Below are positions 2-25,939 of a DNA stretch of 64,000 nt, piece by piece. The notes under the pieces are model-generated. The model saw only the letters and a list, made by a program, of their open reading frames with translations, did not search any database and had not been told where the DNA came from. Each line of letters opens with the position of its first letter. Position 1 is the first letter of the stretch. The stretch lies in the IMG/VR virus record IMGVR_UViG_3300009497_000001; one strand, given 5' to 3'. Position numbers and translations under genes: made by a program. The DNA comes from a virus.

Positions 2-3000
2 ATGTTAAGAGTTGGCCCTGGTCAATATGCAAAGAAAAGCAAATACATGCTTAAGTCTATTCCACAAGAAATTAAGGCAGGATTTAAATTAGGTTCTTGG
101 AAAGGTGCTGCAAAAGCTACAGGCGGCATGATGTTTAGATATGGTGCTAGTGGTCTTGTTGAGGGTACACAAGAAGTATCTCAAGAAGCAATATCAGCTG
201 CAGTAGGAGGATACTATAGTGCAGCATTAAGAGAAACTACACAGGGAGGTGCTCTTACTATGTCTGGATTCTATGGTGCTGCTGGTAAAGAAATATTTAC
301 TAAGCAAGGATTAGAAACATTTGCATCTGGATTTTTAATTGGTGGTATGATGGGACCATATCAACAAGTCTTGTTTACAGGAGTACCTTCTATTTTTAGT
401 ACTGCACGTGCTAAAGTTTCTAATAGCAAATATTTTGATCCAAGCGGTGATAAACAAGTTGTTGATTATGCTAAACAACAAAGAGAAAAGGAAGAATCTG
501 TAATTGATGATGTAATATCTCAAGCTAATCAGATGGGCACACAGTTGGGGGAACTTGATTTACTATTAGACCCTGCTAAAATGAGTGCTGCATTGCAGGA
601 CCAAGAAGCAGGTATGGCAAACTTATCTATTGCTTTAAATGATAAGTATGATTATATGAATGGTAGAAACTTTTCACGTTTTTATAATTTATACGGTAAG
701 TATAAAAAGGGTACCATGGGTCTATATAGAGATATGGTTACTGATTTTTCTAAAATGTCTGATACTGAACTAGCTGAAGCATTTGACATAAAAGATTTTG
801 GTAGAAGTCCAGAAAAGTTAAGAGAAGAATTTATAGCTGAGTTAGGTAGGATAAATGAATTTGGTGAAAGGATAGCATCAAAGTCAACAGATGAAATGTT
901 TGAACAAAAGAAAATTGATGTATCAGAGTATGATGAGTCAAGTAAAGGGTATAGAGATGCTATGTTTCATAACAGAGCTGTTGATCAAGCAAAGATGTTA
1001 TATATATTTTCTAAAGAATCATTTATAGATGCAGTAAAAAGACAAGCTGATATAGAACAGTCCTTTGAGAATGAGCCTATTTTTACAAAGCAAAAGTATG
1101 GAGATGTAAGAGTTCTTGTTAATGCAGAAAGCATTGATACAGAAATAAAAATGCTTACCAGAGAAATTAAAGCTAAAGAAGATGCTGGTACACCAGCCTC
1201 TGAACTTAAGAAAGATAAAAGAAAGTTAAAAGATTTAAAAAGATATTATGCTGTTTTAACTGACCCTAAAAATCTAACTAAGAAAGGTTTCTTTAATAGA
1301 GCAAAAACAAAAACAATAAAGAGTGCTTTACAAACTTATTTAAATGGTATTGCAGGTGATAAGTCTGATTATGTTAATCCAGAAGTAGTTGATACTTTAT
1401 TACAAAAATTAATTGATCATCAGGCACTACAAGAAGATGCTTTTGCATTTTCTCAAACAGTTAACATTATGGCAAACCCAGAAGTTACTGCTGAGATTGT
1501 TCAAAGAAATGTAGAGTACTTTGAATATTTATTTAAGAATAGAAAAGAAATATATAGACATCAAACAGAACAATACTTAGAGGCAGATAAAAAAAATAAG
1601 TTAATAAATGCCATAGCTCAGTATGATGTTTACATGAAGCCTGAACTAATTAGAGATTTTTTATCTGGTGAAATAGGCGTTGAGGGTTTATATGAAGGTT
1701 TAAATAGAGGTGAGTTTAGTATTGATGGTAGAGCTCTTGGTGGTGCTATACAGTTAAATGAAGATCAAGAAATACAGAAAAAGATAATTGCTGAAATATT
1801 AAATTATAAACTCTTAACAGAAAGAGAACAAGATGTTAGAGACCTTAAATCTAATGAAAGCACTCAGCAACAAATAGATGTTGAAGAAACTTTACAGGAT
1901 GCAGGCATAGATGATATACAAATAGGAGATACTACAAGATCACCTATGTTAAAGAATATACTTGAAACAGAGTACCGTAAATATAAAGAATCTGCATTTA
2001 CTAAAGATGCAAAAGAATTTGCAGATTGGAGAGTTTCAGATGATGGTAAAAGAATTAAAACCGCATATGATGCATTAAAAAGAGTATGGGGTAAAGGATA
2101 TGATATTTTTGTAACAGAAAATGGTCAACAAGTATCACGTAGAAGAGTACCAACTCAGAAAGATTTAAATACAGAAAAAGGATTTCAAGATTATTTAAAT
2201 AGTAAAGTAGCATTAGAAGATCCAACAGTTGTAGATATACTTAATGCATTAGACCTAACAATGGATATATTTACTACTGAAAATAGTCAAACTGTATCTA
2301 AATCAAAACCCCCTGTAGCAGAAGGTGTAATGTTTGACATTACAGAAGTAGTAACTGATGGTGGGTCATTTTATAAGATTATAGATAAACAAGGAGGTAG
2401 CTTATCACAAGTTCAGTTAGATATTATATCAACAGATATAAGAGAGACAGGTACTTTTACAGATCTATCTAAAGCTAAAAGATTATTGGATATACTTGAT
2501 AGAGAAATATCTGATGGTTCTACGTTTATGTTTGATGGACAAGCTGTGTCAAAAGGCATGTCTATATATGATAAAAACACAGGTGAAGAATTTAGAATAA
2601 ATAGTACAGCTAATAAGGGAGGTATGATTAGTATTGTTCCTTCTGAGTTTTATACTAATGACTATAAGACAAGATACAACAATAGTAAACCTGTAAGTGA
2701 ATTAGATTTCTTTGTTAATTATGAATTAGAAAAATTATCTTTTGATACTTTGCCAACTAATACATACAAGTTATACTCTGATAGAGTAACCAAAGCATAT
2801 ACTCCTTTATCACCAGAAGCTTATAAGTTTCTTCTTAATTCATTGACACCTGCTGATTTCCAAAATTTAATTGTGGACATTCAAGAGAATGAAATGATAA
2901 ATGAGCCTATAAAGGATAATAGATTTTATGGTAATGATGAAAGTAAGGCTAACCCATATATTAAAAAACAAAGAGAGAGATATACTATTGCTCTTAAGTT

Positions 3001-6000
3001 AAGTAAAGATCAGACTGTAGATTTTAATAAAATGCTAACAGACAACAAGCTACCTATAATAGAAGGCAGGCTTGTAAATGAAAGGGGTGAAGGTACTATT
3101 GCTTTCTTACCTAATGATTCTTTATATTTTGTTGATGCTAAAGGTAAGGTTGTTGTTCCATCAGCTATGACAACTGATTTTGCTAAAAACATAATTATAC
3201 CTTCAAGCAACAATCAAGGTATGCAATCTGCATTAGATCAAGTTAGTAATGATTATGATACACAGGCAGTTCTAGTTTCATTTGCTAATGATATGATATC
3301 TAAGGATCAGACTGTAGGTACTTTATCAGAAGGGTTAAAGATAACAAGAAGTGATGGTATACCTGCTTATAAAAAAGGAACTAACCCAGAAATTTCATTA
3401 AGTCAATTATCTCAAAGTACTACTACAGATGGTGCTATAATTATCTATGATATAAAAAGAGATTCTGCTGGTAATATGGTAGGTGATGAACCTACAATTA
3501 TATCTAATTTAAAATCTGATGCTAAAACTGAATTGGCAGATAGAATAGAAAATAATCTTAAAGATGCAGGTCTTTGGAATAAAATGATAAGCGGTGATAA
3601 GACTGGTCCAAATGGAGGTTATACTGATAGATATATAATGCCTATTGAACAGCCTAACGGATTAATGACATTAGCAACTGCAAAAGCAATTAGAGTAGAA
3701 GAAGATACTGTAATTAAAATGTTTAATGATTTATTGCAGCAAGCAAGTGTTGCTAATAAAGATAACATGACTACTAAGAATGGTAAGAAAGTTATTAAAG
3801 ACAAAGGTTTTAATGATGAGTTTAAATTACAATTTATTAAAGATTATGGTGAGTTCTTTATTAGTGGGCCAAAAGGAGTAAATGTAACTATAGATGTTGC
3901 ACCTGATGGGGCATTAAGAGCAGATCTATTTAATAAGTATACAGGTAAAAAAGGCAAAGTATATTATAATGCAGCTGATCAACAAAAGCAAGGAACTACA
4001 ATACAGCATTTGGAAAGATTTTCTGAAAAGATTATTAGTGATCCAAAAGGAAATGAGGTTGGTGTAGAGACTTTAAGTATCAACAACTTTAGAAAGTCAA
4101 TACCATTAGATGCTTCTATAGACATGTTAATGCAAGACTTAGTTACCAAGCTAGGTCCAGAAATTAGAACAGGTCAGTTTATTAATGTTGAGGCAAGTGC
4201 TAGTGCTATCCAAGCTACAAAAGATAAAGGTATATTCTTAGCTAGACCTAGAACAGAACTTGAGCCAGATAAATTAAAAAGAGTAGAAGATACTGAAGAA
4301 AGAAGAGAGGATCCTGCTAGAGCAAGAGCTAGAGCAATTACTAATCTTGGTGATAAGATAAGTCAAGAAAATGTTGAAAAAGCATTTGACAAGTCTGAAG
4401 ATGATACTATATCTAGTGAAGCATTTTTAGAATTTACTAATAATGGTGTAGTAGAAATTAAAGTAATACAATCTATTGCTGATAAAATTAAAACAGGTCA
4501 ACAACTTTCACAAAGAGAGAGGGCAATACGTCAAGCCAAGAGTCAAGAGATTGAAGATATATTAAAAGTTACAGTTACTAAAGATCAAAAAAATGATATT
4601 GACCTTACTCTAATTGCACAAACTCCTATAGATGCAATAAATAATCAGATAGCTGAAAGAGAATTAGAGATATCTGAACAAGTAGGTGAAAAGAAAAAGG
4701 TAAGAGCATTAAGAAAAGATAAAATATATCAAGACTTATTAAAGCAAAGAGAGGACCTGATTGGTCCAGCTAATAAAATTTTATCTCCTAGGTTATCCAA
4801 AAGAGATGTAGAAGACATCAATATATTTACTGAGTGGGCTAAAACAAACTTGCCTTCATTTATTAATATAGCTGATATTGAATCACTAGGTAATAATATG
4901 AAAGCTGGTGGAGTTAGAGTTGGAGCATTTGCTTTAGATCTATCTTCTGTAAGTGGGGGGTTAAGAGCAAGCGGTACATTATATACTGGAGCATCTAATC
5001 CTTTTAGATATCATGAAGCTTTTCATGGTGTATATAGGATGCTACTTACACCACAAGAACAAAAAAGTTTATTGTCTTTTGCTAAAAAACAAAAGAGAGA
5101 ATCACTTAGGTCAGAAGGCAAATCAATTTCAACTGAACTAAAAAAGTTCAGAAACTCTGCAGACACTTATGCTAATATGTCTGATATAGAATTAGAAAAC
5201 AGATACTATGAAGAGTACATGGCGGATCAGTTTGAAATATTTAAAACTAATCCTAAAGAAACAAAAATAGATGCAGAAGTTAAATCATTCTTTACAAGAA
5301 TAATAGAATGGTTTAAATCATTATTTAGTACATACAATAAAAATAAACTGCAAACATTGTTTGAGAATATTGATTCTGCCAAATATGCACAAGCATCAGT
5401 AGTTGCTAATGATTTTACATTAGACCCAAGCCCACAAGTAATTATAGCTAATGCTATATTACCATACGAAGGTTTGCAAGTTAATGGTAGTAAAGGTTAT
5501 TTATATCTAGATAGTAACATTGCTAATAATTTAATTAGTAGTATGGCTGCTAGTTATGTTAGTAGAAAAACTGAAAACATAGATCCAGAAATAAGTAATG
5601 CAGATATATTTGAAGATGTACTAGAAGATTTTGCTTGGTTATATAACGTAACAAACCCAATTAATAGTAAGTATAATTCTTCTCAAGAAGCTTCTAATAT
5701 AGCGGCCATTGAGCAACTTGAAAGAATACATGATGCACTTACATTTAATGCATCAGAAAAGATTGAAGATAGCCCAGTATACAAATCTGTATTTGAAGTT
5801 TTACAACTTATAGATGTACAACAACAAATCATTGATAACAATATTGATGAGTATGAAAACAATGAAGGATTAAGAAATGTAACTCAGTTTGGTAAAGAAG
5901 CATATATGAGTGGAGGGCTGGCATCTTTACCAACATATATAAGACAATACCTTTCTACTATAACAATGCCATATACAGATGCATTTGGTAATGAGCAATT

Positions 6001-9000
6001 AGAAAGTGGTGAAAAATTAGTTATACCAATAAACTCTTTTAAAACTTACAATGGTATAATCAAATCTGTTAAGAATGAGACAGATCCTCTAAAGATATTA
6101 CAACGCATGTATACATTTAGTGGTAATAACCCTAATACTAAAGCTGCAGTAGAAAGCATATTTAATGATATAGGAATAAATTATCATGATGTATCTGAGA
6201 TATCTGATATACAACTGCCTCAGGAAATCAAAAATCCTTTGTTGTTTAATCAAATTACAAAAGGATTTACTAACTATAAAGTAAATTGGATATTCTTACA
6301 ACAAGACAATACCAATGAAGTAATATCTTTTTCAGCGGCTGAGAGAGATGACACACATACTCAAAATGAACTATGGGGTCAAGCTTATACAACTAAGTCT
6401 TTAGATTGGAAAATAAATAAAGAAAAGAAAAAAGCTGCTACAAGATCAGTTAATGCTATTTATGATGAGTTAATTCAACCAGAAGGGTATGAGGATGTTC
6501 CTTTAGATAACATATCTAAAAAATTAGCACAAGATTTATTTGAAGGTGTGGGCATTAAGTTAAGTCCGTTGTATGTTAAGTATAGTATATTGTCTGCCTC
6601 AAATCAAACAGAAACTAGCAATCAAGAATCTATACTTCAATTCAATAATGAAGTAAAGCCTATTCTAGCAGCTGATATGTTTTGGCTACAAGATATTATT
6701 AAAGAGAATGGAGATTTATTTAATTCAGAAAATGAAGGGGCAATTTCAAGATTAAAAAAATTAGCTGTTAATAATGCATTGCTTGATGAGACAGTTGGTT
6801 TGTCAGTATTTAGAAATGTAAATGGTGATTTAGTCAATGCACATCAGAAGCCTACATTTCATTTAGAAAAAGTTTATAATTTAAATAAAGAGGCTGAGAT
6901 AAATAGATTAGAATCAGATAAATTTTTACAAAATAATTATCTATTAAATAGTGAAGAATTCTTAAGCATGTCAGAAGCTAACCAGCTACAAATTTTAAGG
7001 TTATCTGGTTTAAAAGAAGTTAAGACATTAGATAGAAGTGCTAATCTAGATTCATATCAAGATGGTGTTATAGGTACAACAGAGTATGGCAGTTTTACAC
7101 CTAAACAACTTACTACATCTATTATAAACAATTACTTGTTTGATTATAACTCTAGGAATAACACTTTAAAAACTAAAATGGATTCTGCTGCAGTAGCACC
7201 AATCTTAATTAGGATAATGGAATCTTCTAATACAAATGATCAAGTATTATTACCTGTTGTAAAAGCAGTAGATGAAGGGTTAAGAATATCTCCTGACTAC
7301 TTAGGTCATGTATCTGATTTTATAGAAAATGAGTATAATAGAATTGTCAGAGAAAATAGTGAGGAAGGAAATTTACCTTTTCAAGAAATTACTACTAAGA
7401 CAGGTGATGTAATACAGATCCCAAAAGCAATAGAAGGTTACAATGTTCCAGATCAGGATGGTTTGATGAGAATGAATCTTATGTTTAATGCAAAAGATTT
7501 AATCTCTCAAGAGCTAAAAGATTCACTAGAGATATCTGCTACACAAGAAAACCCACCTTCTTTTGATAAGGCAGTTAAAGAAGCTTTAGGTAGTCAGAGT
7601 ATAAACACAATAATAGAAACCCAGCTTGATAAAAAGTTTGAATCTTTTATGGAGATGGTAAACACTTTAGAAGTAGATAGTAAAATATCTAGACTTTTAG
7701 AGAAAGGTTTATTAGATGGAGTTGAAGGAGCTGTAGCACAACAAAATGCAAGAGCAGCATCTAGAAAACTTAACTTAACAGATAATAAAACTCATAACTT
7801 AAAACAAATATTTTTAAATGATTATTTAAATACTAAGTCATTAAATGAATTATTATTAGGTGATCAAGCTGTAATACTTGAAGATTCTATAAAGCAAATT
7901 AAAAGAGCTAAAGGACAGAATGCTGCTGGAGATAGTATATATTCTCCTGTATCTAATCCTGAATTTGGTGTATTTGAAAGTACTGAAAATATAAATGCTA
8001 TAATTTTAAATGAGCCAACAATATTTTCTGAGTTTAATGGTGAATCAATAGATAATGCAGATGCACAAGTATTTACAACAGTTAAGTTTCATAGACATGC
8101 ACAATCATCACTAGGAAATTTAACAAAAGCTGGAGCACTAGCATTGGACAAAATTGAGGATGGCACACCTCTTACTGCAGAAGATTTATATGGACCTCAA
8201 GGTTTAGCTAAAACTAATCAAATGTTAAACTCTAAGAAGTATGTTTACTTTGATGGTAAGACTTATATAAAGTTTTCTGCTATTGCTTTAACGGAAGATC
8301 TTACAAAAAATAATCCTGATCTGAATAGGTTAAGATTAAACATGGAAGCAATGGAAAGAAACTTAGGTGATATTACTTTTGCCGGACCAAAGAGTGCTTT
8401 TAAAATGTTAAAGACTAATGTGCAATCATTTGGAAATGATATAATAGAACCATCAATACAATTAGATGCAAGGTATTTTAGAGAGCAAGTAAAAACAAAA
8501 ACCAATAAAGATATAATAACTGAGCAATCTCAGATAAAAGCTTTGGCTACATCTGAACAAATAGATAGCACACCTGTACAAATAAAAGGAATGCCTAATG
8601 TTAAAGATATTGGTGATGTAAGAAGGTTGTATAATAAAACGTTAAGTAAAAGAATTGCACTAAAGTTTAAAGACAAAAGAAATCTTATATATACTTTTGA
8701 AGGTTTAATGTCTGAGTTTTCATTAGGCAAGCAAAAAAATACTATTACACCCAATCTACAAGTCTTTTTAAAGTATGCAATAAACTCATTAAAAGCATCT
8801 AAAGCTAGCACGAATCTTATGGAGTTTTTTACTGTTGATCCTACAACTGGTGAAGTAAAATACAATATAAACAATCCTATTAGTATTGCTAAGGCTGAAC
8901 AGTTATTTATGAGTTACTTTAGTCAAGGTGTATTTCAAGAGAAGATACCTGGTCACGGTTTAGCTTTAGTATCAGACAAAGGTTTTACTGTACTTAGACG

Positions 9001-12000
9001 TGTCTTTAGTATGGAGGATAACGGCAGGTTAGGTAGAAATGAAGTTATAAGAGGTGGTGTACCAGAAGGTGAAACTGTTTTAAATCTTGAAGTAAATAAC
9101 TTAGGTGCTGACTTTAAGTTTCCATCTAATGGAAAAGGAATTTTAGTAAGAGATAGATTAAGGTATCAACTAGCTGAGTATGATCAGAATGGAAAACGCA
9201 CTGGACAATATTATAGTGAAGGAGTTTTTGCTGCACATAGTGCTGATATATATAATCAATTACAAAGAAAACCTAATGTTGCTATACCAGATTCTATAGG
9301 TAAAATGTTTGCTGTACGTATACCTTCACAAGATAATCATTCTTCTATGAATGTAAAGCTTGTAGATTTTATGCCTGCATACTATGGGTCTTCTGCAATG
9401 TTTGCCTCTGAACTTGTTCAGATATCAGGAGCAGATTTTGATATAGATACAGCATATGTGCAAATAAAAGAATCTTATTATGATAAGAATGATAATACTT
9501 TTTATGCTTATGGTAAGACGCCAGGTAGAGAATATACAGATTATGTAAGATATATAAATCAAGCTGTAAATAAGGATACAATATATTCACAGGCTGCTGC
9601 TTCTTTTACTGATCAAGGAAGTAAGTTAGAAGATTCATTTACTGATGCAGAGCTTATAGATTCTGATTTTTCAGATAGAGCAATAAAGGCTGCCTCAAGG
9701 TTAGGACTTCCAATTACAAGATCACAGTATAACGATTATGTAAAGAAAAATGATGAGCCATATCAAGCACCTTTAAACAATGATGTTTTAGATTATAAGT
9801 ATGCGTTAATGGGTAATGAGGCTGTAAAAGAGATATCAGTTACACCAGCTTCTTTGACTGCTATAGAAGAAGCTTATGAAGAATTAAAGAAGGTTGCACC
9901 AGATTATGTTGCTAGATTAGATAATGAAAATATTGATGTTGATAGTATTACAGGTAAGATAGTATCTTTTGAAGTAAACAAAGGAGCTGCTATTGGTAAA
10001 GCTGTATCACCAAACCTATACTTAAGTTTATTAGGTGAGTATAAAATTAATGTAGGAGGCTCAATTGTTAAAACAAAAGGAGGATACATACAGAGCAGCT
10101 TAGCATTTAATTTAAGAGGGCAAACATATGATAGTTTTGGTACAAAGCTAAACACTTATGGCAAAAGAATTCAAGATGAGATATCTTCTATAATAACAAT
10201 GCTTACAGATAACTCAAAAGAAAACTATGTTGCTAAATTAGGAATGCATCCATCAGCAGTTGGTCTTGCAGTAAATGCAGTTTCCTTAGGTGTACCTTTA
10301 ACTGATGCTGTTTTATTACTGAATGGTAAATTAGTTAGGGACTTATTTGCTGAAGCTAATAACAAAGTAGATAAGTTTGATGCAAGCTTTACATCATTAG
10401 TAAAACAACAACTTAAAGGTTTAAAGAAAGTTAACGCTGGTCCACAGGTTGGATTAGAAACAATAGAAAAAGCTGTAAGAGGAGAAGAACTTACTAAACA
10501 AGAACAAAAATCTATATTGCTTGTTATAAACAATTTAAATTCTATATCAAGTTTTACTGGTAAAATGGCTTCTATAACTTCTATGTCTGGCCGTGGTATT
10601 GGATCTAACTTTAGTGATATACAAAAAAGAGTTGATGACTTTAGAGACATAGGTGTATTACCAGGTACGCAAGAACCAATGATGGATATTAGCCCAATAC
10701 TAGAAAATAGTTGGGTTAAATCAAATATAGATGTATTTAATCAAATTGCTTTTAATTTAATTCCTGCTACATTTATTTCAGGTACTCCAGCATTTAATGA
10801 AATATATAAAAAGATTTCTAGAAATTTAAGCACTAACAAAAAAACGTTTACTGTATTAGATCAACAGAAAGTAAAAAGAGATATGCTTTCTTTCTTTACT
10901 ATACAAGCTTATAGACAAAAGACTAAGGAGTCTGAAGTAAAAGATGGTGCAACACTTACAAACCAATTACTATACCCTAATGAATTTGAGAATTCAATAT
11001 TTGATGCAGTTAATAGATTGAGTCAAGCAGATAAGGGGAACTTCTTTTTAGAAAGTTTTGTTACTATGGTACCCATGTTTGCAGAAACAAACATTACAGG
11101 TATGAATTTATTACAAGCTAACACATGGAGAGGATTAGATAAAGAACAAAAAGTTGATTTGCAAACATCATTTACTAAACTTTATGGCAACCCACTTTTA
11201 AGAAAAGATGCTATGACTATAGTTAACTATATAATGGTTAAAGATGGTTTACAGGCAGCTAAGGGAAGTTTGTTAGATGCTATTTCTCCATTTGTGATGG
11301 ATGAATACTTACAACAAATTAACAATGTTAATGATGTTTTTCTAACTAATAAAGGTTGGTTAGAAACATTTGGTGCTGAGCGTAATGACTTAGTTGATTA
11401 TTTTGAGAATGGTTATTTTAAATCTGCATCAACTAACTCAAAAGTTAAAACAATTACGGTTGGTGATCCTTTAGATATAAATTCACGTTACACATCAAAA
11501 GAAGGTAATGTAGTTTATACTATGGATAAAGATGGTGACCCAGATGCATTACCTAGATATATAAATTTTGCAGATGCAATAACCGGTTTTAGCCAGCTAT
11601 ATGTACTAGATAATATAGATAAGAAAAAAGCAAATTATAAACTAAGTCAAATGGAAGGTTCTTATTATCAAAATGGTATTGGGTTTATGTTTGGAGAAAG
11701 ACCTACTACTTTAGAGAATAGGGATAACATCAGGAATAAAGGTGAAATGAAAAGTGCTTACGGTGCAGAATCATTTGGTGCAATGACAGTAGAGCAAATG
11801 GCACCTCCTGTAAATTCACCACAAAATCAAGCATTAGCAAATGAAAATGCAACAATTGAAGCAACAGAAGATGAAATCAATTTTACAGCTGAAGATTCTC
11901 AAAAAGCCATTAATATTTCAGATACCGGTTTATTAGACTCTATATTAAAGTCAGATGAACAAGCAGAAGAAAATGTTGAAACTGAAGCAACAGGTATAGT

Positions 12001-12286
12001 GGATGCACAAGAAAATATGCCAGTAGAAACAGAAGAGAGACAACAACTTACCTTTGACTTTGATACTGAGATTAGTGATAAATATCCTGTCATTAGTTCA
12101 TTTTATAATAGTATCTTTACAGTGCCTGGGGTTGGAGGAGATATAGTTGCTTATAGAGATATATTAGAAAATAATAATTTAGATTCTCTTGAAGGTATGG
12201 TGGACTTTTATAATAGTCCAAATACTGAGTTCAAATCAGAAGAGGCTTTTGAGGATTATGTAAAGAAATGTATATTAGGAATTTAA
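2..12286 (+). CDS. Giant (>=4094 aa) fusion protein containing a crAss-like virion RNA polymerase module and an upstream HEXXH zincin-like motif; probably 5'-truncated by the window edge
   Basis: Uninterrupted 12.3-kb ORF starting at the window edge. Residues VRIPSQDNHSSMNVKLVDF...ELVQISGADFDIDTAYVQ parallel the NRAPTLH...NADFDGD catalytic double-psi beta-barrel of RNAP beta-prime (GAT TTT GAT ATA GAT at 9434-9448, in frame). HEAFH is at 5012-5026. The N-terminal residues do not look like a true N-terminus. Confidence 0.8.
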   Translation: MLRVGPGQYAKKSKYMLKSIPQEIKAGFKLGSWKGAAKATGGMMFRYGASGLVEGTQEVSQEAISAAVGGYYSAALRETTQGGALTMSGFYGAAGKEIFTKQGLETFASGFLIGGMMGPYQQVLFTGVPSIFSTARAKVSNSKYFDPSGDKQVVDYAKQQREKEESVIDDVISQANQMGTQLGELDLLLDPAKMSAALQDQEAGMANLSIALNDKYDYMNGRNFSRFYNLYGKYKKGTMGLYRDMVTDFSKMSDTELAEAFDIKDFGRSPEKLREEFIAELGRINEFGERIASKSTDEMFEQKKIDVSEYDESSKGYRDAMFHNRAVDQAKMLYIFSKESFIDAVKRQADIEQSFENEPIFTKQKYGDVRVLVNAESIDTEIKMLTREIKAKEDAGTPASELKKDKRKLKDLKRYYAVLTDPKNLTKKGFFNRAKTKTIKSALQTYLNGIAGDKSDYVNPEVVDTLLQKLIDHQALQEDAFAFSQTVNIMANPEVTAEIVQRNVEYFEYLFKNRKEIYRHQTEQYLEADKKNKLINAIAQYDVYMKPELIRDFLSGEIGVEGLYEGLNRGEFSIDGRALGGAIQLNEDQEIQKKIIAEILNYKLLTEREQDVRDLKSNESTQQQIDVEETLQDAGIDDIQIGDTTRSPMLKNILETEYRKYKESAFTKDAKEFADWRVSDDGKRIKTAYDALKRVWGKGYDIFVTENGQQVSRRRVPTQKDLNTEKGFQDYLNSKVALEDPTVVDILNALDLTMDIFTTENSQTVSKSKPPVAEGVMFDITEVVTDGGSFYKIIDKQGGSLSQVQLDIISTDIRETGTFTDLSKAKRLLDILDREISDGSTFMFDGQAVSKGMSIYDKNTGEEFRINSTANKGGMISIVPSEFYTNDYKTRYNNSKPVSELDFFVNYELEKLSFDTLPTNTYKLYSDRVTKAYTPLSPEAYKFLLNSLTPADFQNLIVDIQENEMINEPIKDNRFYGNDESKANPYIKKQRERYTIALKLSKDQTVDFNKMLTDNKLPIIEGRLVNERGEGTIAFLPNDSLYFVDAKGKVVVPSAMTTDFAKNIIIPSSNNQGMQSALDQVSNDYDTQAVLVSFANDMISKDQTVGTLSEGLKITRSDGIPAYKKGTNPEISLSQLSQSTTTDGAIIIYDIKRDSAGNMVGDEPTIISNLKSDAKTELADRIENNLKDAGLWNKMISGDKTGPNGGYTDRYIMPIEQPNGLMTLATAKAIRVEEDTVIKMFNDLLQQASVANKDNMTTKNGKKVIKDKGFNDEFKLQFIKDYGEFFISGPKGVNVTIDVAPDGALRADLFNKYTGKKGKVYYNAADQQKQGTTIQHLERFSEKIISDPKGNEVGVETLSINNFRKSIPLDASIDMLMQDLVTKLGPEIRTGQFINVEASASAIQATKDKGIFLARPRTELEPDKLKRVEDTEERREDPARARARAITNLGDKISQENVEKAFDKSEDDTISSEAFLEFTNNGVVEIKVIQSIADKIKTGQQLSQRERAIRQAKSQEIEDILKVTVTKDQKNDIDLTLIAQTPIDAINNQIAERELEISEQVGEKKKVRALRKDKIYQDLLKQREDLIGPANKILSPRLSKRDVEDINIFTEWAKTNLPSFINIADIESLGNNMKAGGVRVGAFALDLSSVSGGLRASGTLYTGASNPFRYHEAFHGVYRMLLTPQEQKSLLSFAKKQKRESLRSEGKSISTELKKFRNSADTYANMSDIELENRYYEEYMADQFEIFKTNPKETKIDAEVKSFFTRIIEWFKSLFSTYNKNKLQTLFENIDSAKYAQASVVANDFTLDPSPQVIIANAILPYEGLQVNGSKGYLYLDSNIANNLISSMAASYVSRKTENIDPEISNADIFEDVLEDFAWLYNVTNPINSKYNSSQEASNIAAIEQLERIHDALTFNASEKIEDSPVYKSVFEVLQLIDVQQQIIDNNIDEYENNEGLRNVTQFGKEAYMSGGLASLPTYIRQYLSTITMPYTDAFGNEQLESGEKLVIPINSFKTYNGIIKSVKNETDPLKILQRMYTFSGNNPNTKAAVESIFNDIGINYHDVSEISDIQLPQEIKNPLLFNQITKGFTNYKVNWIFLQQDNTNEVISFSAAERDDTHTQNELWGQAYTTKSLDWKINKEKKKAATRSVNAIYDELIQPEGYEDVPLDNISKKLAQDLFEGVGIKLSPLYVKYSILSASNQTETSNQESILQFNNEVKPILAADMFWLQDIIKENGDLFNSENEGAISRLKKLAVNNALLDETVGLSVFRNVNGDLVNAHQKPTFHLEKVYNLNKEAEINRLESDKFLQNNYLLNSEEFLSMSEANQLQILRLSGLKEVKTLDRSANLDSYQDGVIGTTEYGSFTPKQLTTSIINNYLFDYNSRNNTLKTKMDSAAVAPILIRIMESSNTNDQVLLPVVKAVDEGLRISPDYLGHVSDFIENEYNRIVRENSEEGNLPFQEITTKTGDVIQIPKAIEGYNVPDQDGLMRMNLMFNAKDLISQELKDSLEISATQENPPSFDKAVKEALGSQSINTIIETQLDKKFESFMEMVNTLEVDSKISRLLEKGLLDGVEGAVAQQNARAASRKLNLTDNKTHNLKQIFLNDYLNTKSLNELLLGDQAVILEDSIKQIKRAKGQNAAGDSIYSPVSNPEFGVFESTENINAIILNEPTIFSEFNGESIDNADAQVFTTVKFHRHAQSSLGNLTKAGALALDKIEDGTPLTAEDLYGPQGLAKTNQMLNSKKYVYFDGKTYIKFSAIALTEDLTKNNPDLNRLRLNMEAMERNLGDITFAGPKSAFKMLKTNVQSFGNDIIEPSIQLDARYFREQVKTKTNKDIITEQSQIKALATSEQIDSTPVQIKGMPNVKDIGDVRRLYNKTLSKRIALKFKDKRNLIYTFEGLMSEFSLGKQKNTITPNLQVFLKYAINSLKASKASTNLMEFFTVDPTTGEVKYNINNPISIAKAEQLFMSYFSQGVFQEKIPGHGLALVSDKGFTVLRRVFSMEDNGRLGRNEVIRGGVPEGETVLNLEVNNLGADFKFPSNGKGILVRDRLRYQLAEYDQNGKRTGQYYSEGVFAAHSADIYNQLQRKPNVAIPDSIGKMFAVRIPSQDNHSSMNVKLVDFMPAYYGSSAMFASELVQISGADFDIDTAYVQIKESYYDKNDNTFYAYGKTPGREYTDYVRYINQAVNKDTIYSQAAASFTDQGSKLEDSFTDAELIDSDFSDRAIKAASRLGLPITRSQYNDYVKKNDEPYQAPLNNDVLDYKYALMGNEAVKEISVTPASLTAIEEAYEELKKVAPDYVARLDNENIDVDSITGKIVSFEVNKGAAIGKAVSPNLYLSLLGEYKINVGGSIVKTKGGYIQSSLAFNLRGQTYDSFGTKLNTYGKRIQDEISSIITMLTDNSKENYVAKLGMHPSAVGLAVNAVSLGVPLTDAVLLLNGKLVRDLFAEANNKVDKFDASFTSLVKQQLKGLKKVNAGPQVGLETIEKAVRGEELTKQEQKSILLVINNLNSISSFTGKMASITSMSGRGIGSNFSDIQKRVDDFRDIGVLPGTQEPMMDISPILENSWVKSNIDVFNQIAFNLIPATFISGTPAFNEIYKKISRNLSTNKKTFTVLDQQKVKRDMLSFFTIQAYRQKTKESEVKDGATLTNQLLYPNEFENSIFDAVNRLSQADKGNFFLESFVTMVPMFAETNITGMNLLQANTWRGLDKEQKVDLQTSFTKLYGNPLLRKDAMTIVNYIMVKDGLQAAKGSLLDAISPFVMDEYLQQINNVNDVFLTNKGWLETFGAERNDLVDYFENGYFKSASTNSKVKTITVGDPLDINSRYTSKEGNVVYTMDKDGDPDALPRYINFADAITGFSQLYVLDNIDKKKANYKLSQMEGSYYQNGIGFMFGERPTTLENRDNIRNKGEMKSAYGAESFGAMTVEQMAPPVNSPQNQALANENATIEATEDEINFTAEDSQKAINISDTGLLDSILKSDEQAEENVETEATGIVDAQENMPVETEERQQLTFDFDTEISDKYPVISSFYNSIFTVPGVGGDIVAYRDILENNNLDSLEGMVDFYNSPNTEFKSEEAFEDYVKKCILGI

Positions 12287-12295: not shown

Positions 12296-15200
12296 ATGAG
12301 TAAATGTCATAACAAAAATACAGCAGAATACCAGTCTTTAAAACAAGAGTATGGTACGGATGCGGCTACAGGAAATATAATTGATCAGTATCAAGCATTT
12401 ACAAAAACGGATACAATACCTACTGTTGCAGAAGCAATAGAATTTATTACTAATAAACAAACACTTTATAACTTAAAGCAATTAGATTTTGGTCAGTCAT
12501 TACTAAACAATCTAAGAAGACTTAGTATTATACATAGCTTTCAAGGTAAGTATTTTATAAATAATACTGACAGAGATACTTTACAACCAAGTAATGAATT
12601 AGTTGAAGCAAATAGAAGAAGGTTAGAAAGATATTTAGATATAAATAATATTCCGGCTGAGTCAGTGCTTATTTCTAAAACACCAAAGACATATACTGTA
12701 AGTATAGACAGCAGCATGTTTAGCCCAATAGATATGCTTGAGTCATCAAGAGCTTGGGACAAGCCTAGAACAAGACACGTAGTTATGCATTTAATGAAGC
12801 TGATTCCTGGACTAAATGTCTCTATGAAATCAGTAAGTGAAGCAAAAGCACTTTATGAAAAAATACCACAGTGGAGAAAGTCAAAAGTTCCTTTTGATCA
12901 AATTAATTCATTTTATGTAGAGAATAATGTTATTCTTATAAAAGGTAGGGTTACCGATGAGATAGCAATAGAAGAGGTGCTTCACCCATTTGTAGAAGCT
13001 GTAAGAGTAAGTAATATAAAATTATTTGAGGGTTTATTATCAGAAGCAGGTAAAACATTTCCTGTTATGAAACAACAAATAGATGATGCTTATAACAGCA
13101 AAAGAAATGTTAGTGCGGTAGATAGAGAGATGGAATTAATTACTCAAGCATTATCTAGACATTATAATAATGAGTATGAGGAAGCTCCACCACAAAGTTT
13201 TATGGATAAGATCCGTGAATTATTAGAGTGGTTATCAAAAATAATTAAAAACTTAAATGAAGTAATTACCGGTAGAACTATCAATATAGATAATATATCT
13301 GAACGAGCTAGCTTATCTGATATTGCTAAATTATTAAATACAACAGGTATAGTATTTAATATAGATACATCACAAACTAACGGTAAAGTAAAATATAATT
13401 TATCTCCTAGAAAACAAAAGGTGGTAGATGGAGTAAAGGGAAAATCAAATGAATTACAAAAGCGTATTATTGATAGACTAACACACAAAGTAAATGCTTC
13501 AAAACAAGAAGCTGATTCATTATCTGTTAGTGCAGGACCTGAAGTGGCTATACAAAATAGTGATCCACTAGTTATTTTAAATAAAAAAGACGGTAAATTT
13601 TACAACCTAACAAATAGAAAAGAAGTTAAGTCAGTCTCAGATGTTGTTGGTAGAAAGAAAGAATCTCAAAAGACAATTGAAGTTAAACAAGATATAAGTT
13701 TAATGTTGGATGCAATTGCAATTGATGAATCATTTGAAAGTATTCAAGATAAACTTATTGGTTTAACACCTGAGTTTGCTCAAAACGCATTTAATAATTT
13801 AGTACAAGAATTACAAACTACAATGAACACAACTGATAGAATGCTAACAAATGTAGTATTCTATGATCAATTAACTGACACAGCAGGTATTGCTGATGTG
13901 GTTATATTAAATAGAGTTGGTCATTTTAAAATATTAAAGATACAAATCAATGAGGCTAATGTTATGACAAAAAATCCAAAGTCTTGGATTAAAGGTGTAT
14001 TAAAACAAGACCTGGAGAAAAGCTCATACTATCAAGATAAAATTGATTTAGAAGAAGGAAACTTATTAAAGGATGATAAATTAACATTATCAGTTCAAGA
14101 TCAGGTGGAGGTAGGCTTAATTAGAAGAATGGCACAAAATCAAGGATATGATATTGTTTATGGAGATAATGCTGTACAAAGTTTAATATTAAGCTATAAA
14201 GGTAAAGCATTACAATTTCATGGTCATATATCTCATCCTCAATTTCAAAATGATAATCACGTAGATTCTGTAATACCATATGCTGCATATACTGTATCAG
14301 ATGATGAAGTAAAGAAATTATCTAAAGATTTAGAAGAAGGACTTTATGATGTAGATAGAAAAGATTCTGAAATAGAAACTCTAGCTGAGCAAGTAGATCC
14401 ATCATTATATCCTGCAGAAAGCACTATTAGTGTAGCACTAGATAATTATTATGAAGCTTTGGTTGATGAAGCTAGAGTTAGGGAAATGACTGAAGCAAAT
14501 ATATTTAGTGATAGGTCTAAAGAAGATCATAAAGAAACAATTGCTAACACGTTAGCATATATTAATGTTGCTAAGGCAGAAGGTCCTGTGGCTCAGTCTG
14601 TTGCATATACTAAAATACTAAGGGACTCATTAACTGAAATGAAAAAGTTTTCTGCTTATGTTATTGATCCAAAGAATGTTGCTGAAGATCCAAATTATAT
14701 TAGATATGTAATGAACTTTAATAAGTTCTTAACCACATTTGATGGTCTTTATCTAATAGAAGACAACACTGATATTAATGCAACACAAAGATCTTTGATA
14801 GGTCAGATTAATATTGAACTTGTAAAGCTATTAGGTGCACCAACAATAAAAGGAAATGGAGAAGGGGAAGGTATAGTAAATCAAGCTATTCTTAATTATG
14901 TTTATGATTTGACTTTACAATTGTCTCAAGATGGAATGAGTCAAGATAAAAACAACATACTACAGTCACATAGTGGAAAGACATTTACTGTTGATGATAT
15001 AGAAGATATACTTAAGATGGTTCCAGATATTGATGGAGCAGAACTGTATTCAAAAGATCTAGCTACATCAGCTGATTTTCTTTTATCTTCTATGGATAAA
15101 ATATTTAAAATTAAAAGAATTGAGTTTTTAGATAAAGTTAAACTTAGAGAAAAGAGGCTTAGAGAAGGAGGTGCAGCAATACTTTCCTTAGATACAGAAA

Positions 15201-19740: not shown

Positions 19741-20154
19741 ATGAAAAAGGTTCTGTTGTTTATTCTAGCATTGTTTATTACCTCAACTATACAGGGTCAA
19801 CAATGGGTTAGTGATGATAGCTTTGTTAATGAAATAAATGGACACTCAGGTGATCAAGATGAAGATATAGTTATTATAGAATTTTGGGCAGAGTTTAATA
19901 AAGACAATGCTTTTATAGACTGGAAGAAGATAGATGATCTTGATGGTGTAAAATATTTAAGAGCTAACATAGCTCAGTGCCCATCATTAAAGAAAGAATT
20001 TAGAATTAGAATGGTGCCCACCATATTAATTTTTTCAGGAGGAGACGCATTTATAAAGTTTAAAGCTAAAGCCGGTCTAGACCTCCTATGCCCTATAGAC
20101 TATCCTAAGATGGTTAGAGCAATAGAGGTTGTTAGACGAGAAGCTTCTTACTAG
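19741..20154 (+). CDS. Secreted thioredoxin-fold protein lacking the CxxC active site (137 aa)
   Basis: Signal peptide MKKVLLFILALFITSTIQGQ. IIEFWAEFNKDNA aligns with thioredoxin vvdFWApWCgpCk but has no cysteines. MVPTILIFSGGD matches the cis-Pro loop region. Confidence 0.55.
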   Translation: MKKVLLFILALFITSTIQGQQWVSDDSFVNEINGHSGDQDEDIVIIEFWAEFNKDNAFIDWKKIDDLDGVKYLRANIAQCPSLKKEFRIRMVPTILIFSGGDAFIKFKAKAGLDLLCPIDYPKMVRAIEVVRREASY

Positions 20155-21776
20155 CCTTCACAGCTAGAACACTCTAAAATATTTCTTGCAAAATCTTGAG
20201 CACTGCTTTTACTAAATTGATAGTATAAAGTTTTTACACCCTCTTCCCAAGCATACATATATAACTTATTTATATCTTTAGCTGATACAGAAGGATCTAT
20301 CATTAAGTTTAATGACTGAGACTGATCAATATACTTTTGTCTTTGTGCTGCCTGCAATACAATCTCTTTTGGAGATATCTCAACAAATGATTTAAATACT
20401 TCTTTGGTAGGAAAATCTAAGTGTTGTACACTACCATCTTTCTTTAAGATAGACTTCCAAGTCTTGTCTGTATTTAGACCGTGCTTCTCAAGCTCCTCTT
20501 CCAAAAATGGATTCTTGTAGATAGTCTTAGACTTAGCAAGATCTTTAATAAAGTAGTTAGACTTGATAGGCTCTATACCCATAGACACAGCACCGTGTAT
20601 AAATGAACTAGACTTAGTAGGAGCAATGGCCATAAGAGTAGTATTAGCATATCCTTCTCTAAGAGATGTGTATCCATAGTCATTATGTAACTCTCTAGAA
20701 GCAATTTCACTTCTGTCTTTTAGTGTTCTAAAGATTTCACTATTTAATCCTTTAGCTTGTAGTGAGTCAAACTCAAGAAGCTTTGATTGAAACAAAGAAT
20801 GATAACCTAACACACCAAGGCCAATAGCTCTATGTTTCTCAGCAAAGTTAAATGCTCTCTTCATACCCGGCATAGTCTCAGACTTAATAATGAATTCATC
20901 CATTACTGCATTTAAGAAATACACATACGTCTCAATTGCATCAGTTTCTTTTATCTGATCCCAGTGTAATAAGTTAATAGACCCAAGACAGCATACAAAA
21001 GAGTTATAACTATCTGTAGGAAGCTGAATTTCTGAACATAAGTTTGAAGCTGTGATCTCCATTCCAAGCTCTTTGTAAGGAGAGTTATTGTTAGAGTTGT
21101 CTTTAAACATAATATAAGGAAAGCCAAACTCACTTCTGTTCTGAATAATTTTTGCCCACACCTTACGCTTACCTTTATCTCCTTCTTTCATTTCATTCAT
21201 CCACTGATCTGTAACTGTAACTCCATACTGTAAGTTTTGTATAGGATTACCTTCTGTCCCTATGTCTAAGAACTCTGAGATGTCTGGATGTTCAACTGGT
21301 AGGTACACTGCACAAGCACCACGTCTTGCTTCAGATTGCTTGCATACATCTACTACTGTATCATAAATCTTAGCATAATGAACTGGACCATCAGCAAAAC
21401 CACCTGTAGATATTTCTGTTCCTCTTGCTCTAATGTTGCCAATAAAAGCACTTGTACCTCCCCCATATTTACTCATCATTCCAATTTCACGCCCTGCATT
21501 TAATATGCTGTCTAAGTTGTCATCAACATTAGATCCGTAACAGCTTATAGGCAAACCTTTTTGTTTACCAAAATTAATCCATACAGGAGTAGACAGAGAG
21601 TAAAACCCTCTTGCCATGTAGTCCTCAAACTTTTCTGCAAAGCCTTTTATATTCAAATACTTTTCTGCTTTTATAGCAATGTCTTTGATTCTTTGTTCAG
21701 GGCTTTCTGATATATACCCTCTTGATAAAAATGTGCGGCTGTCTTCATTCAGCCAGTAGTATTTATTATATTCCAT
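20151..21776 (-). CDS. nrdA: Ribonucleotide reductase class I large subunit, compact form without ATP-cone (541 aa)
   Basis: NLCSEI active-site motif, CCLGSINL, YY pair (KTLYYQF) and a C-terminal CSSC redox tail. Adjacent nrdB. Confidence 0.85.
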   Translation of the reverse strand: MEYNKYYWLNEDSRTFLSRGYISESPEQRIKDIAIKAEKYLNIKGFAEKFEDYMARGFYSLSTPVWINFGKQKGLPISCYGSNVDDNLDSILNAGREIGMMSKYGGGTSAFIGNIRARGTEISTGGFADGPVHYAKIYDTVVDVCKQSEARRGACAVYLPVEHPDISEFLDIGTEGNPIQNLQYGVTVTDQWMNEMKEGDKGKRKVWAKIIQNRSEFGFPYIMFKDNSNNNSPYKELGMEITASNLCSEIQLPTDSYNSFVCCLGSINLLHWDQIKETDAIETYVYFLNAVMDEFIIKSETMPGMKRAFNFAEKHRAIGLGVLGYHSLFQSKLLEFDSLQAKGLNSEIFRTLKDRSEIASRELHNDYGYTSLREGYANTTLMAIAPTKSSSFIHGAVSMGIEPIKSNYFIKDLAKSKTIYKNPFLEEELEKHGLNTDKTWKSILKKDGSVQHLDFPTKEVFKSFVEISPKEIVLQAAQRQKYIDQSQSLNLMIDPSVSAKDINKLYMYAWEEGVKTLYYQFSKSSAQDFARNILECSSCEG

Positions 21777-21788
21777 TGGTTTTTGTTT

Positions 21789-25576: not shown

Positions 25577-25594
25577 TAATTAAAAATAAAAATT

Positions 25595-25843: not shown

Positions 25844-25846
25844 GAT

Positions 25847-25933: not shown

Positions 25934-25939
25934 ACAATT

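What the first reader, a model, noticed from the sequence alone, without database searches (positions are those of the whole stretch)
2..12286. crAss-like virion RNA polymerase embedded in a >4000-aa fusion protein
The ORF contains a segment (VRIPSQDNHSSMNVKLVDF...ELVQISGADFDIDTAYVQ, DFDID at 9434-9448) that closely mirrors the NRAPTLH...NADFDGD catalytic double-psi beta-barrel of cellular RNAP beta-prime. In phages, a single giant polypeptide carrying this signature is the hallmark of crAss-like viruses. There the enzyme is packaged in the virion and injected to transcribe early genes (characterised for Cellulophaga phage phi14:2 gp66). Here the RNAP-like part appears to occupy only the C-terminal ~2300 aa. 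It is fused to ~1700 aa of unknown function plus a protease-like motif, so the architecture is much larger than the characterised enzyme.
Basis: partly seen in the sequence, partly recalled or inferred. Interest (0 to 1): 0.85.

Follow-up and report, generated by a model that had tools for sequence, protein, structure and literature searches.

The report
Giant crAss-like virion RNA polymerase fusion

Summary
Positions 2-12286 (+) are one open frame of 4,094 codons, and DFDID lies at 9434-9448. The frame is open at the window's 5' end: relatives 94% identical in DNA show that 458 codons are missing, so the protein has about 4,550 residues.

The RNA polymerase reading is supported. A family profile aligns to phi14:2 gp66 over 1,112 columns (99.3%, E 9e-21). 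The only PDB sequence hit is 6VR4 (E 1.3e-18), and it is also the only significant Foldseek hit (E 6.7e-15). The next ORF is the gp65 orthologue, and ribonucleotide reductase genes follow on the other strand, as in phi14:2.

The "unknown" N-terminal part has a known counterpart. It is colinear with the 2,322-residue RNA-polymerase-associated cargo protein of crAss001-type phages, including that protein's C-terminal HEAFH domain.

The fusion is real: 16 of 18 related viral contigs carry an uninterrupted ORF of 4,491-5,462 residues. It is not new. RefSeq crassvirus cr4_1 gp26 (4,491 aa) has HEAFH and DFDID at the same spacing, and cr53_1 gp57 (4,645 aa) is a similar giant. Of the best 150 database clusters, 100 are 4,000 aa or longer. 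The literature already describes polyprotein fusions and polymerase genes of up to about 6,000 aa.

Protease function and cleavage remain untested. Verdict: new member of a known kind, modest interest.

The parts
2..12286 (+). Giant ORF, truncated at its 5' end by the window edge: 4,094 of about 4,552 codons. It fuses a cargo protein, an HExxH domain and a two-barrel RNA polymerase.
   Evidence: uninterrupted ORF of 4,491-5,462 aa in 16 of 18 related viral contigs
128..1279 (+). Conserved N-terminal region (aa 43-426), homologous to aa 428-833 of the crAss001-type 2,322-aa RNA-polymerase-associated cargo protein (cr112_1 QOR59226.1)
   Evidence: hhalign 97.5%, E 5.8e-12, 354 columns
4139..4441 (+). 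Least conserved, charged stretch (aa about 1380-1480). Candidate inter-domain linker or processing region.
   Evidence: conservation profile; 21 acidic and 17 basic residues in 101; the in-frame TAA of relative L024 maps nearby; inference
4739..5551 (+). HExxH (zincin-like) domain, aa about 1580-1850. With the DFDID region, it is one of the two best-conserved parts of the protein.
   Evidence: tblastn finds 50 phage records at E up to 5, 49 of them crAss-like by name, but only the best few are significant (best 5e-8). BLASTP E 6e-12 to cr4_1 gp26 and 1.3e-8 to cr112_1.
5012..5026 (+). HEAFH motif (aa 1671-1675), the putative metal-binding and catalytic site
   Evidence: invariant in 14 of 14 family members, and identical in cr4_1 gp26 and the cr112_1 cargo protein
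5204..5227 (+). Invariant YYEEYMAD motif (aa 1735-1742). Candidate third metal ligand (Glu) of a gluzincin-type site.
   Evidence: the ligand role is inference
7271..11098 (+). RNA polymerase core (aa 2424-3699), homologous to phi14:2 gp66 residues 687-1919
   Evidence: hhalign 99.3%, E 9.4e-21; 6VR4 is the only PDB hit
8039..8470 (+). Probable beta-like double-psi beta-barrel (aa about 2680-2823). It holds the invariant DAQ (2687-2689) and the Lys residues K2746 and K2757.
   Evidence: It aligns to the gp66 region just upstream of the Connector. Invariant columns. AF2 predicts beta-strands here with block-mean pLDDT mostly 60-84. The barrel fold itself was not verified.
8471..9085 (+). Connector between the two barrels (aa 2824-3028; gp66 1095-1238)
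9086..9571 (+). Beta-prime-like double-psi beta-barrel region (aa about 3029-3190), with RIPSQ..HS and GADFDID
   Evidence: AF2 confidence here is low
9434..9448 (+). DFDID catalytic metal-binding motif (aa 3145-3149), aligned to gp66 1361-DFDID-1365
9941..10036 (+). Bridge-helix equivalent (aa 3314-3345; gp66 1529-1559)
10166..10282 (+). Trigger-loop equivalent (aa 3389-3427; gp66 1598-1636)
11699..12283 (+). Acidic, poorly conserved C-terminal tail (aa 3900-4094), ending in the conserved KKCILGI (Cys4090)
12296..18061 (+). Downstream 1,921-aa ORF: the orthologue of phi14:2 gp65, crAss001 gp49 and cr4_1 gp27 (RNA-polymerase-associated virion protein). Here it has no HExxH motif.
   Evidence: BLASTP E 4e-9; hhalign 95.7-99.6%

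Best explanation
The ORF is the transcription-block giant protein of a marine crAss-like phage. One polypeptide of about 4,550 residues joins three modules. The first is the orthologue of the large RNA-polymerase-associated cargo protein (crAss001 gp47 type, phi14:2 gp67). The second is that protein's C-terminal HExxH domain. The third is the orthologue of the two-barrel virion RNA polymerase (phi14:2 gp66, crAss001 gp50). The gp65/gp49-type partner is encoded immediately downstream.

By analogy with phi14:2 and crAss001, the protein would be made late, packed into the capsid as cargo, and pushed partly unfolded through the tail ahead of or with the DNA. In the cell the polymerase part would transcribe the early genes without help from the host polymerase, using the DFDID barrel together with the beta-like barrel. 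The invariant HEAFH/YYEEYMAD domain most likely binds a metal. It may cut the polyprotein or remove an inhibitory segment to activate the polymerase.

Shown here: the homology, the domain order, the reality of the fusion and the synteny. Inferred: packaging, injection, early-gene transcription and any proteolysis.
For: RNA polymerase homology: (37 BFVD hits at E up to 1e-3; those that carry a name are nearly all crAss-like phages, plus phi14:2, the marine Virus NIOZ-UU157 and Azobacteroides phage ProJPt-Bp1).

N-terminal module: hhalign to the cr112_1 2,322-aa cargo protein gives 97.5%, E 5.8e-12, and the HEAFH domain gives BLASTP E 1.3e-8. That cargo protein matches phi14:2 gp67 at E 3e-10.

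Reality of the fusion: 16 of 18 IMG/VR contigs, 30-97% identical, carry an uninterrupted ORF with invariant HEAFH and DFDID.

Same architecture in named crassviruses: cr4_1 gp26, with HEAFH at 2002 and DFDID at 3433, and cr53_1 gp57 of 4,645 aa.

How common it is: 485 clusters match, and 100 of the best 150 are 4,000 aa or longer.

Synteny with phi14:2: giant ORF, then the gp65-like ORF, then RNR genes on the opposite strand.

Virion presence and early transcription in the model phages.
Against: The capsid, portal and terminase genes are not in the window, so membership of Crassvirales rests on the transcription block and replication genes.

The AF2 model is poor (pLDDT 59, and below 50 across the catalytic barrel). 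The Foldseek match to 6VR4 has a low TM-score (0.24), so the fold is supported by local similarity only.

gp66 residues 1-686, which include the cleft-blocking domain, have no detectable counterpart.

The HExxH domain has no Pfam, PHROGs, PDB or Foldseek match. Nothing here shows cleavage, packaging or activity.
Confidence: 0.85

Rival explanations
1. The giant ORF is an assembly or gene-calling artefact, and separate gp67-like and gp66-like genes have been joined by error.
For: Two relatives show breaks. L024 has one in-frame TAA and an N-gap. L023 has several stops and a frameshift. The TARA scaffold L003 is split at a run of N.
Against: Sixteen of 18 independent viral contigs, 30-97% identical, keep one uninterrupted frame of 4,491-5,462 residues. 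RefSeq genomes annotate the same giant. One hundred of the best 150 clusters are 4,000 aa or longer. The breaks lie at different positions and partly at scaffold gaps.
Confidence: 0.02
2. The giant protein works as one uncleaved polypeptide of about 500 kDa. The HExxH domain is not a processing protease. It could be a structural metal site, a cell-wall or envelope peptidase used during entry, or another HExxH enzyme.
For: No zincin fold or family match was found. N4-type virion polymerase keeps an HExxH subdomain inside an intact 3,500-residue protein, and the gp65-type HExxH domain matches that subdomain. Drobysheva et al. also suggest peptidoglycan digestion as an alternative role.
Against: In crAss001-type phages the HEAFH domain and the polymerase are separate proteins, so covalent linkage is not required. 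A weakly conserved charged stretch lies upstream of the HEAFH domain, where a cleavage site could be. The published view favours cleavage of the polyproteins.
Confidence: 0.4
3. The DFDID segment is a chance or non-catalytic resemblance in a purely structural or ejection protein.
For: Most of the protein has no recognisable domain. The AF2 model does not resolve the catalytic barrel.
Against: Colinear homology to an enzyme with shown activity runs over 1,112 columns. Invariant residues cluster at both barrels, and the stretches aligned to the gp66 bridge helix and trigger loop are conserved.
Confidence: 0.03
4. It is an N4-type (T7-like, single-subunit) virion polymerase, not a two-barrel enzyme.
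For: Both kinds are giant virion-packaged polymerases with an associated HExxH domain.
Against: A PDB sequence search with the whole ORF finds no N4 polymerase chain. The profile of the core hits only 6VR4. The motif is DxDxD in a beta-prime-like context.
Confidence: 0.01

Closest known systems
Cellulophaga phage phi14:2 gp66 virion RNA polymerase (PDB 6VR4) with its neighbours gp67 and gp65
   Same: The catalytic DFDID aligns. gp66 687-1919 is colinear with window aa 2424-3699, across both barrels, the Connector, the bridge helix and the trigger loop. A gp65 orthologue lies directly downstream, and RNR genes follow on the opposite strand.
   Different: In phi14:2 the three proteins are separate (1,797, 2,180 and 1,421 aa), and the HExxH motif sits on gp65. 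Here the gp67-type protein, an HExxH domain and the polymerase form one chain, and the gp65-type ORF has no HExxH. The first 686 residues of gp66, including the cleft-blocking domain, have no detectable counterpart. Identity in the aligned part is about 21%.
crAss001-type cargo proteins gp47 (262 kDa), gp49 and gp50, represented here by cr112_1 QOR59226.1, QOR59225.1 and QOR59224.1
   Same: The N-terminal part of the full-length giant, about 2,300 residues, is colinear with the 2,322-aa protein and ends in an identical HEAFH domain. ORF2 matches the 1,349-aa protein at 99.4%.
   Different: In crAss001-type genomes the HEAFH protein is a separate gene. It converges on the polymerase and gp49-type genes, which lie on the other strand. 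Here it is fused in frame to the polymerase.
Suoliviridae crassviruses cr4_1 gp26 (4,491 aa) and cr53_1 gp57 (4,645 aa)
   Same: cr4_1 gp26 has the same fused architecture and size, with HEAFH at 2002 and DFDID at 3433 (1,431 residues apart, against 1,474 here). It is followed by a gp65-type ORF of 1,803 aa. cr53_1 gp57 is a giant of similar size, followed by a 1,709-aa gp65-type ORF. I did not examine its motifs.
   Different: These are gut phages, and cr4_1 gp26 has 38 in-frame stops under the standard code. Sequence identity is low (27-30% in the best segments). Their gp65-type proteins keep an HExxH motif. The window phage is marine, has about 32% G+C, uses the standard code, and carries a family A DNA polymerase.
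N4-like (Schitoviridae) virion RNA polymerase
   Same: It is also a giant polymerase that is packaged and injected. Its C-terminal domain contains an HExxH subdomain (C1), which matches the gp65-type HExxH domain (BLASTP E 1.3e-9).
   Different: Its catalytic core is a T7-like single-subunit polymerase, unrelated to the two-barrel fold. The window's HEAFH domain matches a gp65/N4-type HExxH alignment (gp65, cr4_1 gp27, cr53_1 gp56, Presley virion polymerase) only weakly (hhalign E 0.007, probability 5.5%).
Thermus phage P23-45 tape-measure-fused two-barrel virion RNA polymerase (5,002 aa)
   Same: A two-barrel virion polymerase embedded in a giant multifunctional virion protein (abstract listed).
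   Different: The fusion partner is different (a tail tape measure protein) and so is the phage lineage. It was not compared by sequence here.

Membership tests
crAss-like two-barrel virion RNA polymerase (phi14:2 gp66 family) | DFDxD metal-binding motif in a beta-prime-like barrel context | tested here: met
   DFDID at aa 3145-3149 aligns to gp66 1361-1365. RIPSQ..HS and GADFDID are invariant in 14 sequences.
crAss-like two-barrel virion RNA polymerase (phi14:2 gp66 family) | Significant colinear sequence homology to gp66 across both barrels, the Connector, the bridge helix and the trigger loop | tested here: met
   hhalign gives 99.3%, E 9.4e-21, 1,112 columns, covering gp66 687-1919. hmmsearch against the PDB finds only 6VR4, at E 1.3e-18.
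crAss-like two-barrel virion RNA polymerase (phi14:2 gp66 family) | Two double-psi beta-barrel folds in one chain, confirmed in three dimensions | tested here: inconclusive
   The AF2 model has mean pLDDT 59 and is below 50 over segment residues 517-718, which include DFDID. Foldseek finds only 6vr4_A (E 6.7e-15, probability 1.00), but TM is 0.24 and rmsd 38 A. The beta-like barrel is placed at aa about 2680-2823 by alignment and predicted strands only.
crAss-like two-barrel virion RNA polymerase (phi14:2 gp66 family) | Sits in a transcription block with gp65-type and gp67/gp47-type giant proteins | tested here: met
   ORF2 matches gp65, cr4_1 gp27 and the crAss001-type 1,349-aa protein. The N-terminal module matches the cr112_1 2,322-aa protein, which in turn matches gp67.
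crAss-like two-barrel virion RNA polymerase (phi14:2 gp66 family) | Packaged in the virion, injected, and transcribes early genes in a rifampicin-resistant way | not testable with these tools
   Known for phi14:2 and, as regards virion presence, for crAss001. Here it is inferred from homology.
Order Crassvirales (taxon) | crAss-type major capsid protein, portal and large terminase | not tested
   These genes lie outside the window. The 10-kb upstream flanks of relatives hold only unannotatable ORFs.
Order Crassvirales (taxon) | Giant-protein transcription block and a shared replication gene set | tested here: met
   Nine window ORFs have phi14:2 homologues: the polymerase, gp65, both RNR subunits, DNA polymerase, RusA, Sak4, UDG and the SNF2 helicase. 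The replication genes are also widespread in other phages.
Zincin-like metallopeptidase | HExxH motif on a helix | tested here: met
   HEAFH is invariant in 14 of 14 sequences and is present in cr4_1 and cr112_1. AF2 places it at the start of a helix (segment residues 89-101; block-mean pLDDT 67-75, rising to about 90 just downstream).
Zincin-like metallopeptidase | Third metal ligand downstream, and the zincin fold (a mixed beta-sheet plus the active-site helices) | tested here: inconclusive
   The invariant YYEEYMAD lies 60 residues downstream and is a candidate ligand. There is no Pfam match, no PDB sequence match and no Foldseek match. The predicted sheet region has pLDDT below 50.
Zincin-like metallopeptidase | Peptidase activity or self-processing | not testable with these tools
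   Proposed but untested in the literature as well.
gp65/N4-C1-type HExxH domain | Significant homology to the HExxH domain of phi14:2 gp65 and of N4-like virion polymerase | tested here: inconclusive
   All four motif blocks align in the same order, but hhalign gives E 0.007 and probability 5.5%. By contrast, gp65 against Presley virion polymerase gives BLASTP E 1.3e-9.
N4-type single-subunit virion RNA polymerase | T7-like polymerase core | tested here: not met
   No N4 or T7 polymerase chain appears among the PDB matches of the whole ORF or of the core profile.

The most novel reading that the evidence does not exclude
The invariant HEAFH/YYEEYMAD domain is a self-processing metalloprotease. 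It would cut the polyprotein of about 4,550 residues at poorly conserved linker stretches flanking it, of which only aa about 1380-1480 is supported by the conservation profile. It would release and activate the polymerase only after packaging or ejection. The same module, which sits on different cargo proteins in different crass lineages and is perhaps related to the C1 subdomain of N4 virion polymerase, would then be a general maturation switch for virion-borne RNA polymerases of two unrelated catalytic types.
Probability: 0.2. Interest if true: 0.55.

Novelty: new member of a known kind. Interest (0 to 1): 0.27.

Why it matters
The result confirms that a tool-free reading of raw DNA can recognise a highly divergent two-barrel RNA polymerase. 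It also provides a marine, standard-code, uninterrupted example of the fused crass transcription protein, with 17 related contigs and several hundred database relatives. That set is deep enough to map conserved and variable parts: both barrels, the bridge helix and trigger loop, an invariant HExxH domain, a linker and a C-terminal cysteine.

The open biological question is shared by the whole order and is not peculiar to this locus. How is a 250-500 kDa polymerase kept inactive, threaded through the tail and switched on? Does the HExxH domain do the switching? The fused forms are the natural material for testing that.

Tried and rejected
- A search of the 5.8-billion protein set with the whole 4,094-aa ORF timed out.
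- Pfam and PHROGs on the whole ORF and on ORF2 gave nothing.
- Pfam on 14 HEAFH-domain sequences gave only noise.
- A PDB sequence search with the HEAFH profile gave only coiled-coil noise.
- AF2 of the HEAFH domain (pLDDT 58) followed by Foldseek against the PDB gave no match below E 0.7.
The models therefore rest on 12-16 sequences and are poor.
- Direct BLASTP and hhalign of the N-terminal part against phi14:2 gp67 were not significant. gp67 has no full-length relatives in the phage collection or in IMG/VR from which to build a profile. The link was made through the cr112_1 protein instead.
- The upstream ORFs of relatives showed no similarity to phi14:2 or to PHROGs, so the structural module could not be used for classification.
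- A Kyte-Doolittle scan found no transmembrane-like segment in the N-terminal module. The only hydrophobic stretch lies at the C-terminal edge of the trigger-loop equivalent in the polymerase core.
- ORF2 and the gp65 family showed no significant similarity to the C2 part of an N4-like virion polymerase.
- I considered that the apparent splits in L003, L023 and L024 show separate genes. L003 and part of L024 are N-gap artefacts. The rest is unresolved.
Full report
**1. The observation**

Positions 2-12286 on the + strand form a single open frame of 4,094 codons. The codons GAT TTT GAT ATA GAT, which spell DFDID, lie at 9434-9448. The frame runs off the 5' end of the window.

Three viral contigs (L005-L007) are 94% identical to the window in DNA and colinear with it. 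Window position 1 corresponds to L006 position 5800, and the ORF in L006 begins at 4427. The ATG at position 2 is therefore an internal methionine. The window lacks 458 codons, and the real protein has about 4,552 residues.

**2. The polymerase part**

All of the following point to the phi14:2 virion polymerase gp66:

- tblastn of aa 1751-4094 against 50,697 phage records found 60 matching records. All are crAss-like phages. The matches cover only aa about 2894-3451, and the annotated ones among the 30 listed are mostly called RNAP or RNAP catalytic subunit.
- BLASTP against gp66 aligns aa 3029-3448 with gp66 1239-1657 (E 2e-9) and places ADFDID on SDFDID.
- A profile of 14 family members aligns to gp66 with 99.3% probability and E 9.4e-21 over 1,112 columns, covering window aa 2424-3699 and gp66 687-1919.
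- Using the residue ranges given by Drobysheva et al., that span contains the Connector (window aa 2824-3028), the DFDID barrel, the bridge helix (3314-3345) and the trigger loop (3389-3427).
- The region just upstream of the Connector (aa about 2680-2823) is the likely beta-like barrel. It carries the invariant DAQ and two invariant lysines (K2746, K2757), which also align with lysines in gp66.
- The same profile searched against all PDB sequences hits only 6VR4, at E 1.3e-18.

The structure prediction is weaker evidence. An AlphaFold2 model of aa 2440-3639, built from only 16 sequences, is poor: mean pLDDT is 59, and it is below 50 across the catalytic barrel. Foldseek against the PDB still finds 6vr4_A as its only significant match (E 6.7e-15), but with a low TM-score of 0.24. 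Against predicted viral structures it gives 37 hits at E up to 1e-3. The named ones are nearly all crAss-like phages, plus phi14:2 itself and a marine virus, NIOZ-UU157, at 34% identity. Homology is therefore firm. Confirmation of the two barrels in three dimensions is still missing.

**3. Gene context**

The next ORF (12296-18061, 1,921 aa) is the orthologue of phi14:2 gp65, called the RNA-polymerase-associated protein. BLASTP gives E 4e-9. hhalign gives 95.7% to gp65, 99.6% to cr4_1 gp27 and 99.4% to the crAss001-type 1,349-aa protein.

Ribonucleotide reductase genes follow on the opposite strand, as they do in phi14:2. Nine window ORFs in all have phi14:2 homologues. The capsid, portal and terminase genes are not in the window.

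**4. The N-terminal part and the protease-like motif**

The motif is HEAFH at aa 1671-1675 (nt 5012-5026). It lies in one of the two best-conserved stretches of the protein (aa about 1600-1800), together with an invariant YYEEYMAD 60 residues downstream.

tblastn with this domain alone found 50 phage records at a permissive cut-off of E 5. By name, 49 of them are crAss-like, but only the best few are significant (best E 5e-8).

In crAss001-type phage cr112_1 the match is the C-terminal end of a separate 2,322-aa protein annotated as a putative RNA-polymerase subunit, which has HEAFH at residue 2169. The giant protein's N-terminal conserved region (window aa 43-426) aligns to residues 428-833 of the same protein at 97.5%, E 5.8e-12. 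That protein in turn matches phi14:2 gp67 at its N-terminus (E 3e-10).

In crAss001 itself, mass spectrometry detected three RNA-polymerase-associated proteins in virions: gp47 (262.5 kDa), gp49 (154.5 kDa) and gp50 (276.9 kDa). By size, the 2,322-aa cr112_1 protein corresponds to gp47.

I could not confirm the protease reading. There is no match in Pfam, PHROGs, PDB sequences or Foldseek. Comparison with the HExxH domain of gp65 and of N4-like virion polymerase lines up all motif blocks in the same order but is not significant (E 0.007, probability 5.5%).

**5. Is the fusion real, and is it new?**

It is real. Eighteen related IMG/VR contigs, 30-97% identical, were fetched. Sixteen carry an uninterrupted ORF of 4,491-5,462 residues, and the other two run off the contig end. 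All keep HEAFH and DFDID. The apparent split in a TARA scaffold is caused by a run of N.

It is not new, on four grounds:

- The RefSeq crassvirus cr4_1 encodes gp26 of 4,491 aa, with HEAFH at 2002 and DFDID at 3433. cr53_1 encodes gp57 of 4,645 aa. Each is followed by a gp65-type gene.
- A profile of the HEAFH region, searched against 1.84 billion cluster representatives, found 485 clusters at E up to 0.001. Of the best 150, 100 are 4,000 residues or longer (median 4,624, maximum 6,198).
- A 2023 review describes polymerase genes of up to about 6,000 aa as a hallmark of the group.

**6. Mechanism**

The homology, the domain order and the synteny are shown here. [quoted passage not shown]

It is open whether the HEAFH domain cleaves the polyprotein. 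One possible site is the poorly conserved, charged stretch at aa about 1380-1480, near where relative L024 has an in-frame TAA followed by GTG. The alternatives are that the domain has another role or that the protein stays intact. I put cleavage by this domain at roughly even odds or lower.

What differs among lineages is where the HExxH domain sits:

| Lineage | Location of the HExxH domain |
|---|---|
| phi14:2 | on gp65 |
| crAss001 type | C-terminus of the gp47-type protein |
| cr4_1 | on both giant proteins (gp26 and gp27) |
| this window's clade | only in the giant fusion; absent from the gp65-type ORF |

**7. Verdict**

The locus is a new marine member of a known and common kind. Interest is modest. 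Its main value is as a clean, standard-code, uninterrupted example with a good comparative set.

Noticed in passing
window 12269-12271 (Cys4090); C-termini of the giant ORFs in L006-L022; L002 (gp66); L027 (cr4_1 gp26): Every giant polymerase fusion ends with a cysteine 1-16 residues from the C-terminus. The same holds for phi14:2 gp66 (...TKQECK), cr4_1 gp26 (...MLNCKGK) and the gut crAss polymerases P0013 and P0015. In the marine clade it usually appears as (F/Y)xDx(I/V)K(K/S/R)C after an acidic tail. I know of no described function for it.
   Followed up: partly
L024 9112-9117; L023 about 8640-8880: Relative L024 has a single in-frame TAA followed at once by GTG, about 320 codons upstream of HEAFH, in the weakly conserved linker. 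L023 has several in-frame stops and a frameshift about 730 codons upstream. These could be real gene splits, recoding or sequencing errors.
   Followed up: partly
window 12296-18061: The gp65-type ORF and its three full-length relatives have no HExxH motif, although phi14:2 gp65 (HEIMH at 245) and cr4_1 gp27 (HEILH at 342) do. The HExxH domain of gp65 matches residues 2209-2289 of the N4-like Presley virion polymerase (BLASTP E 1.3e-9), which corresponds to the C1 subdomain described for N4.
   Followed up: partly
proteins P0010 and P0005 (relatives of the giant ORF): Some relatives carry extra NADAR and DUF7831 domains inserted between the polymerase part and the C-terminal tail. The window protein has only an acidic low-complexity stretch at that position.
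   Followed up: partly
window 55082-55323 (-): A tight cluster of three tRNA genes, Met(cat), Leu(taa) and Arg(tct), lies inside the leftward replication module.
   Followed up: no
window 19741-22769 and 35185-36944: A thioredoxin-like ORF (19741-20154, +) lies next to the RNR large and small subunit genes (20151-22769, -). A spore-photoproduct-lyase-like ORF (36114-36944, -) and a DUF932 ORF (35185-36060, -) lie beside the family A DNA polymerase gene (36944-38935, -).
   Followed up: no
window 25109-33907 (+): A holin-like ORF (25109-25576) is followed by two large ORFs of 1,342 and 1,109 aa. The second has a bacterial Ig (Big_9/cadherin-like) domain. They may be fibre or receptor-binding proteins placed away from the unseen structural module.
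   Followed up: no
protein P0001 / locus L004: The closest protein in the large database (49% identity) is labelled as coming from a Sulfurovum sp. metagenome-assembled genome. It sits on a 3.9-kb contig made up entirely of this gene, so it is probably phage DNA binned by mistake. It is not evidence for the host.
   Followed up: no
hit H85 (Leptolyngbya phage Lbo-JY46, record positions 62444-63688): The C-terminal domain of phi14:2 gp65 (aa 971-1421) matches a hypothetical protein of a cyanophage at E 1e-20. This RNA-polymerase-associated module therefore occurs outside the recognised crAss-like phages.
   Followed up: no
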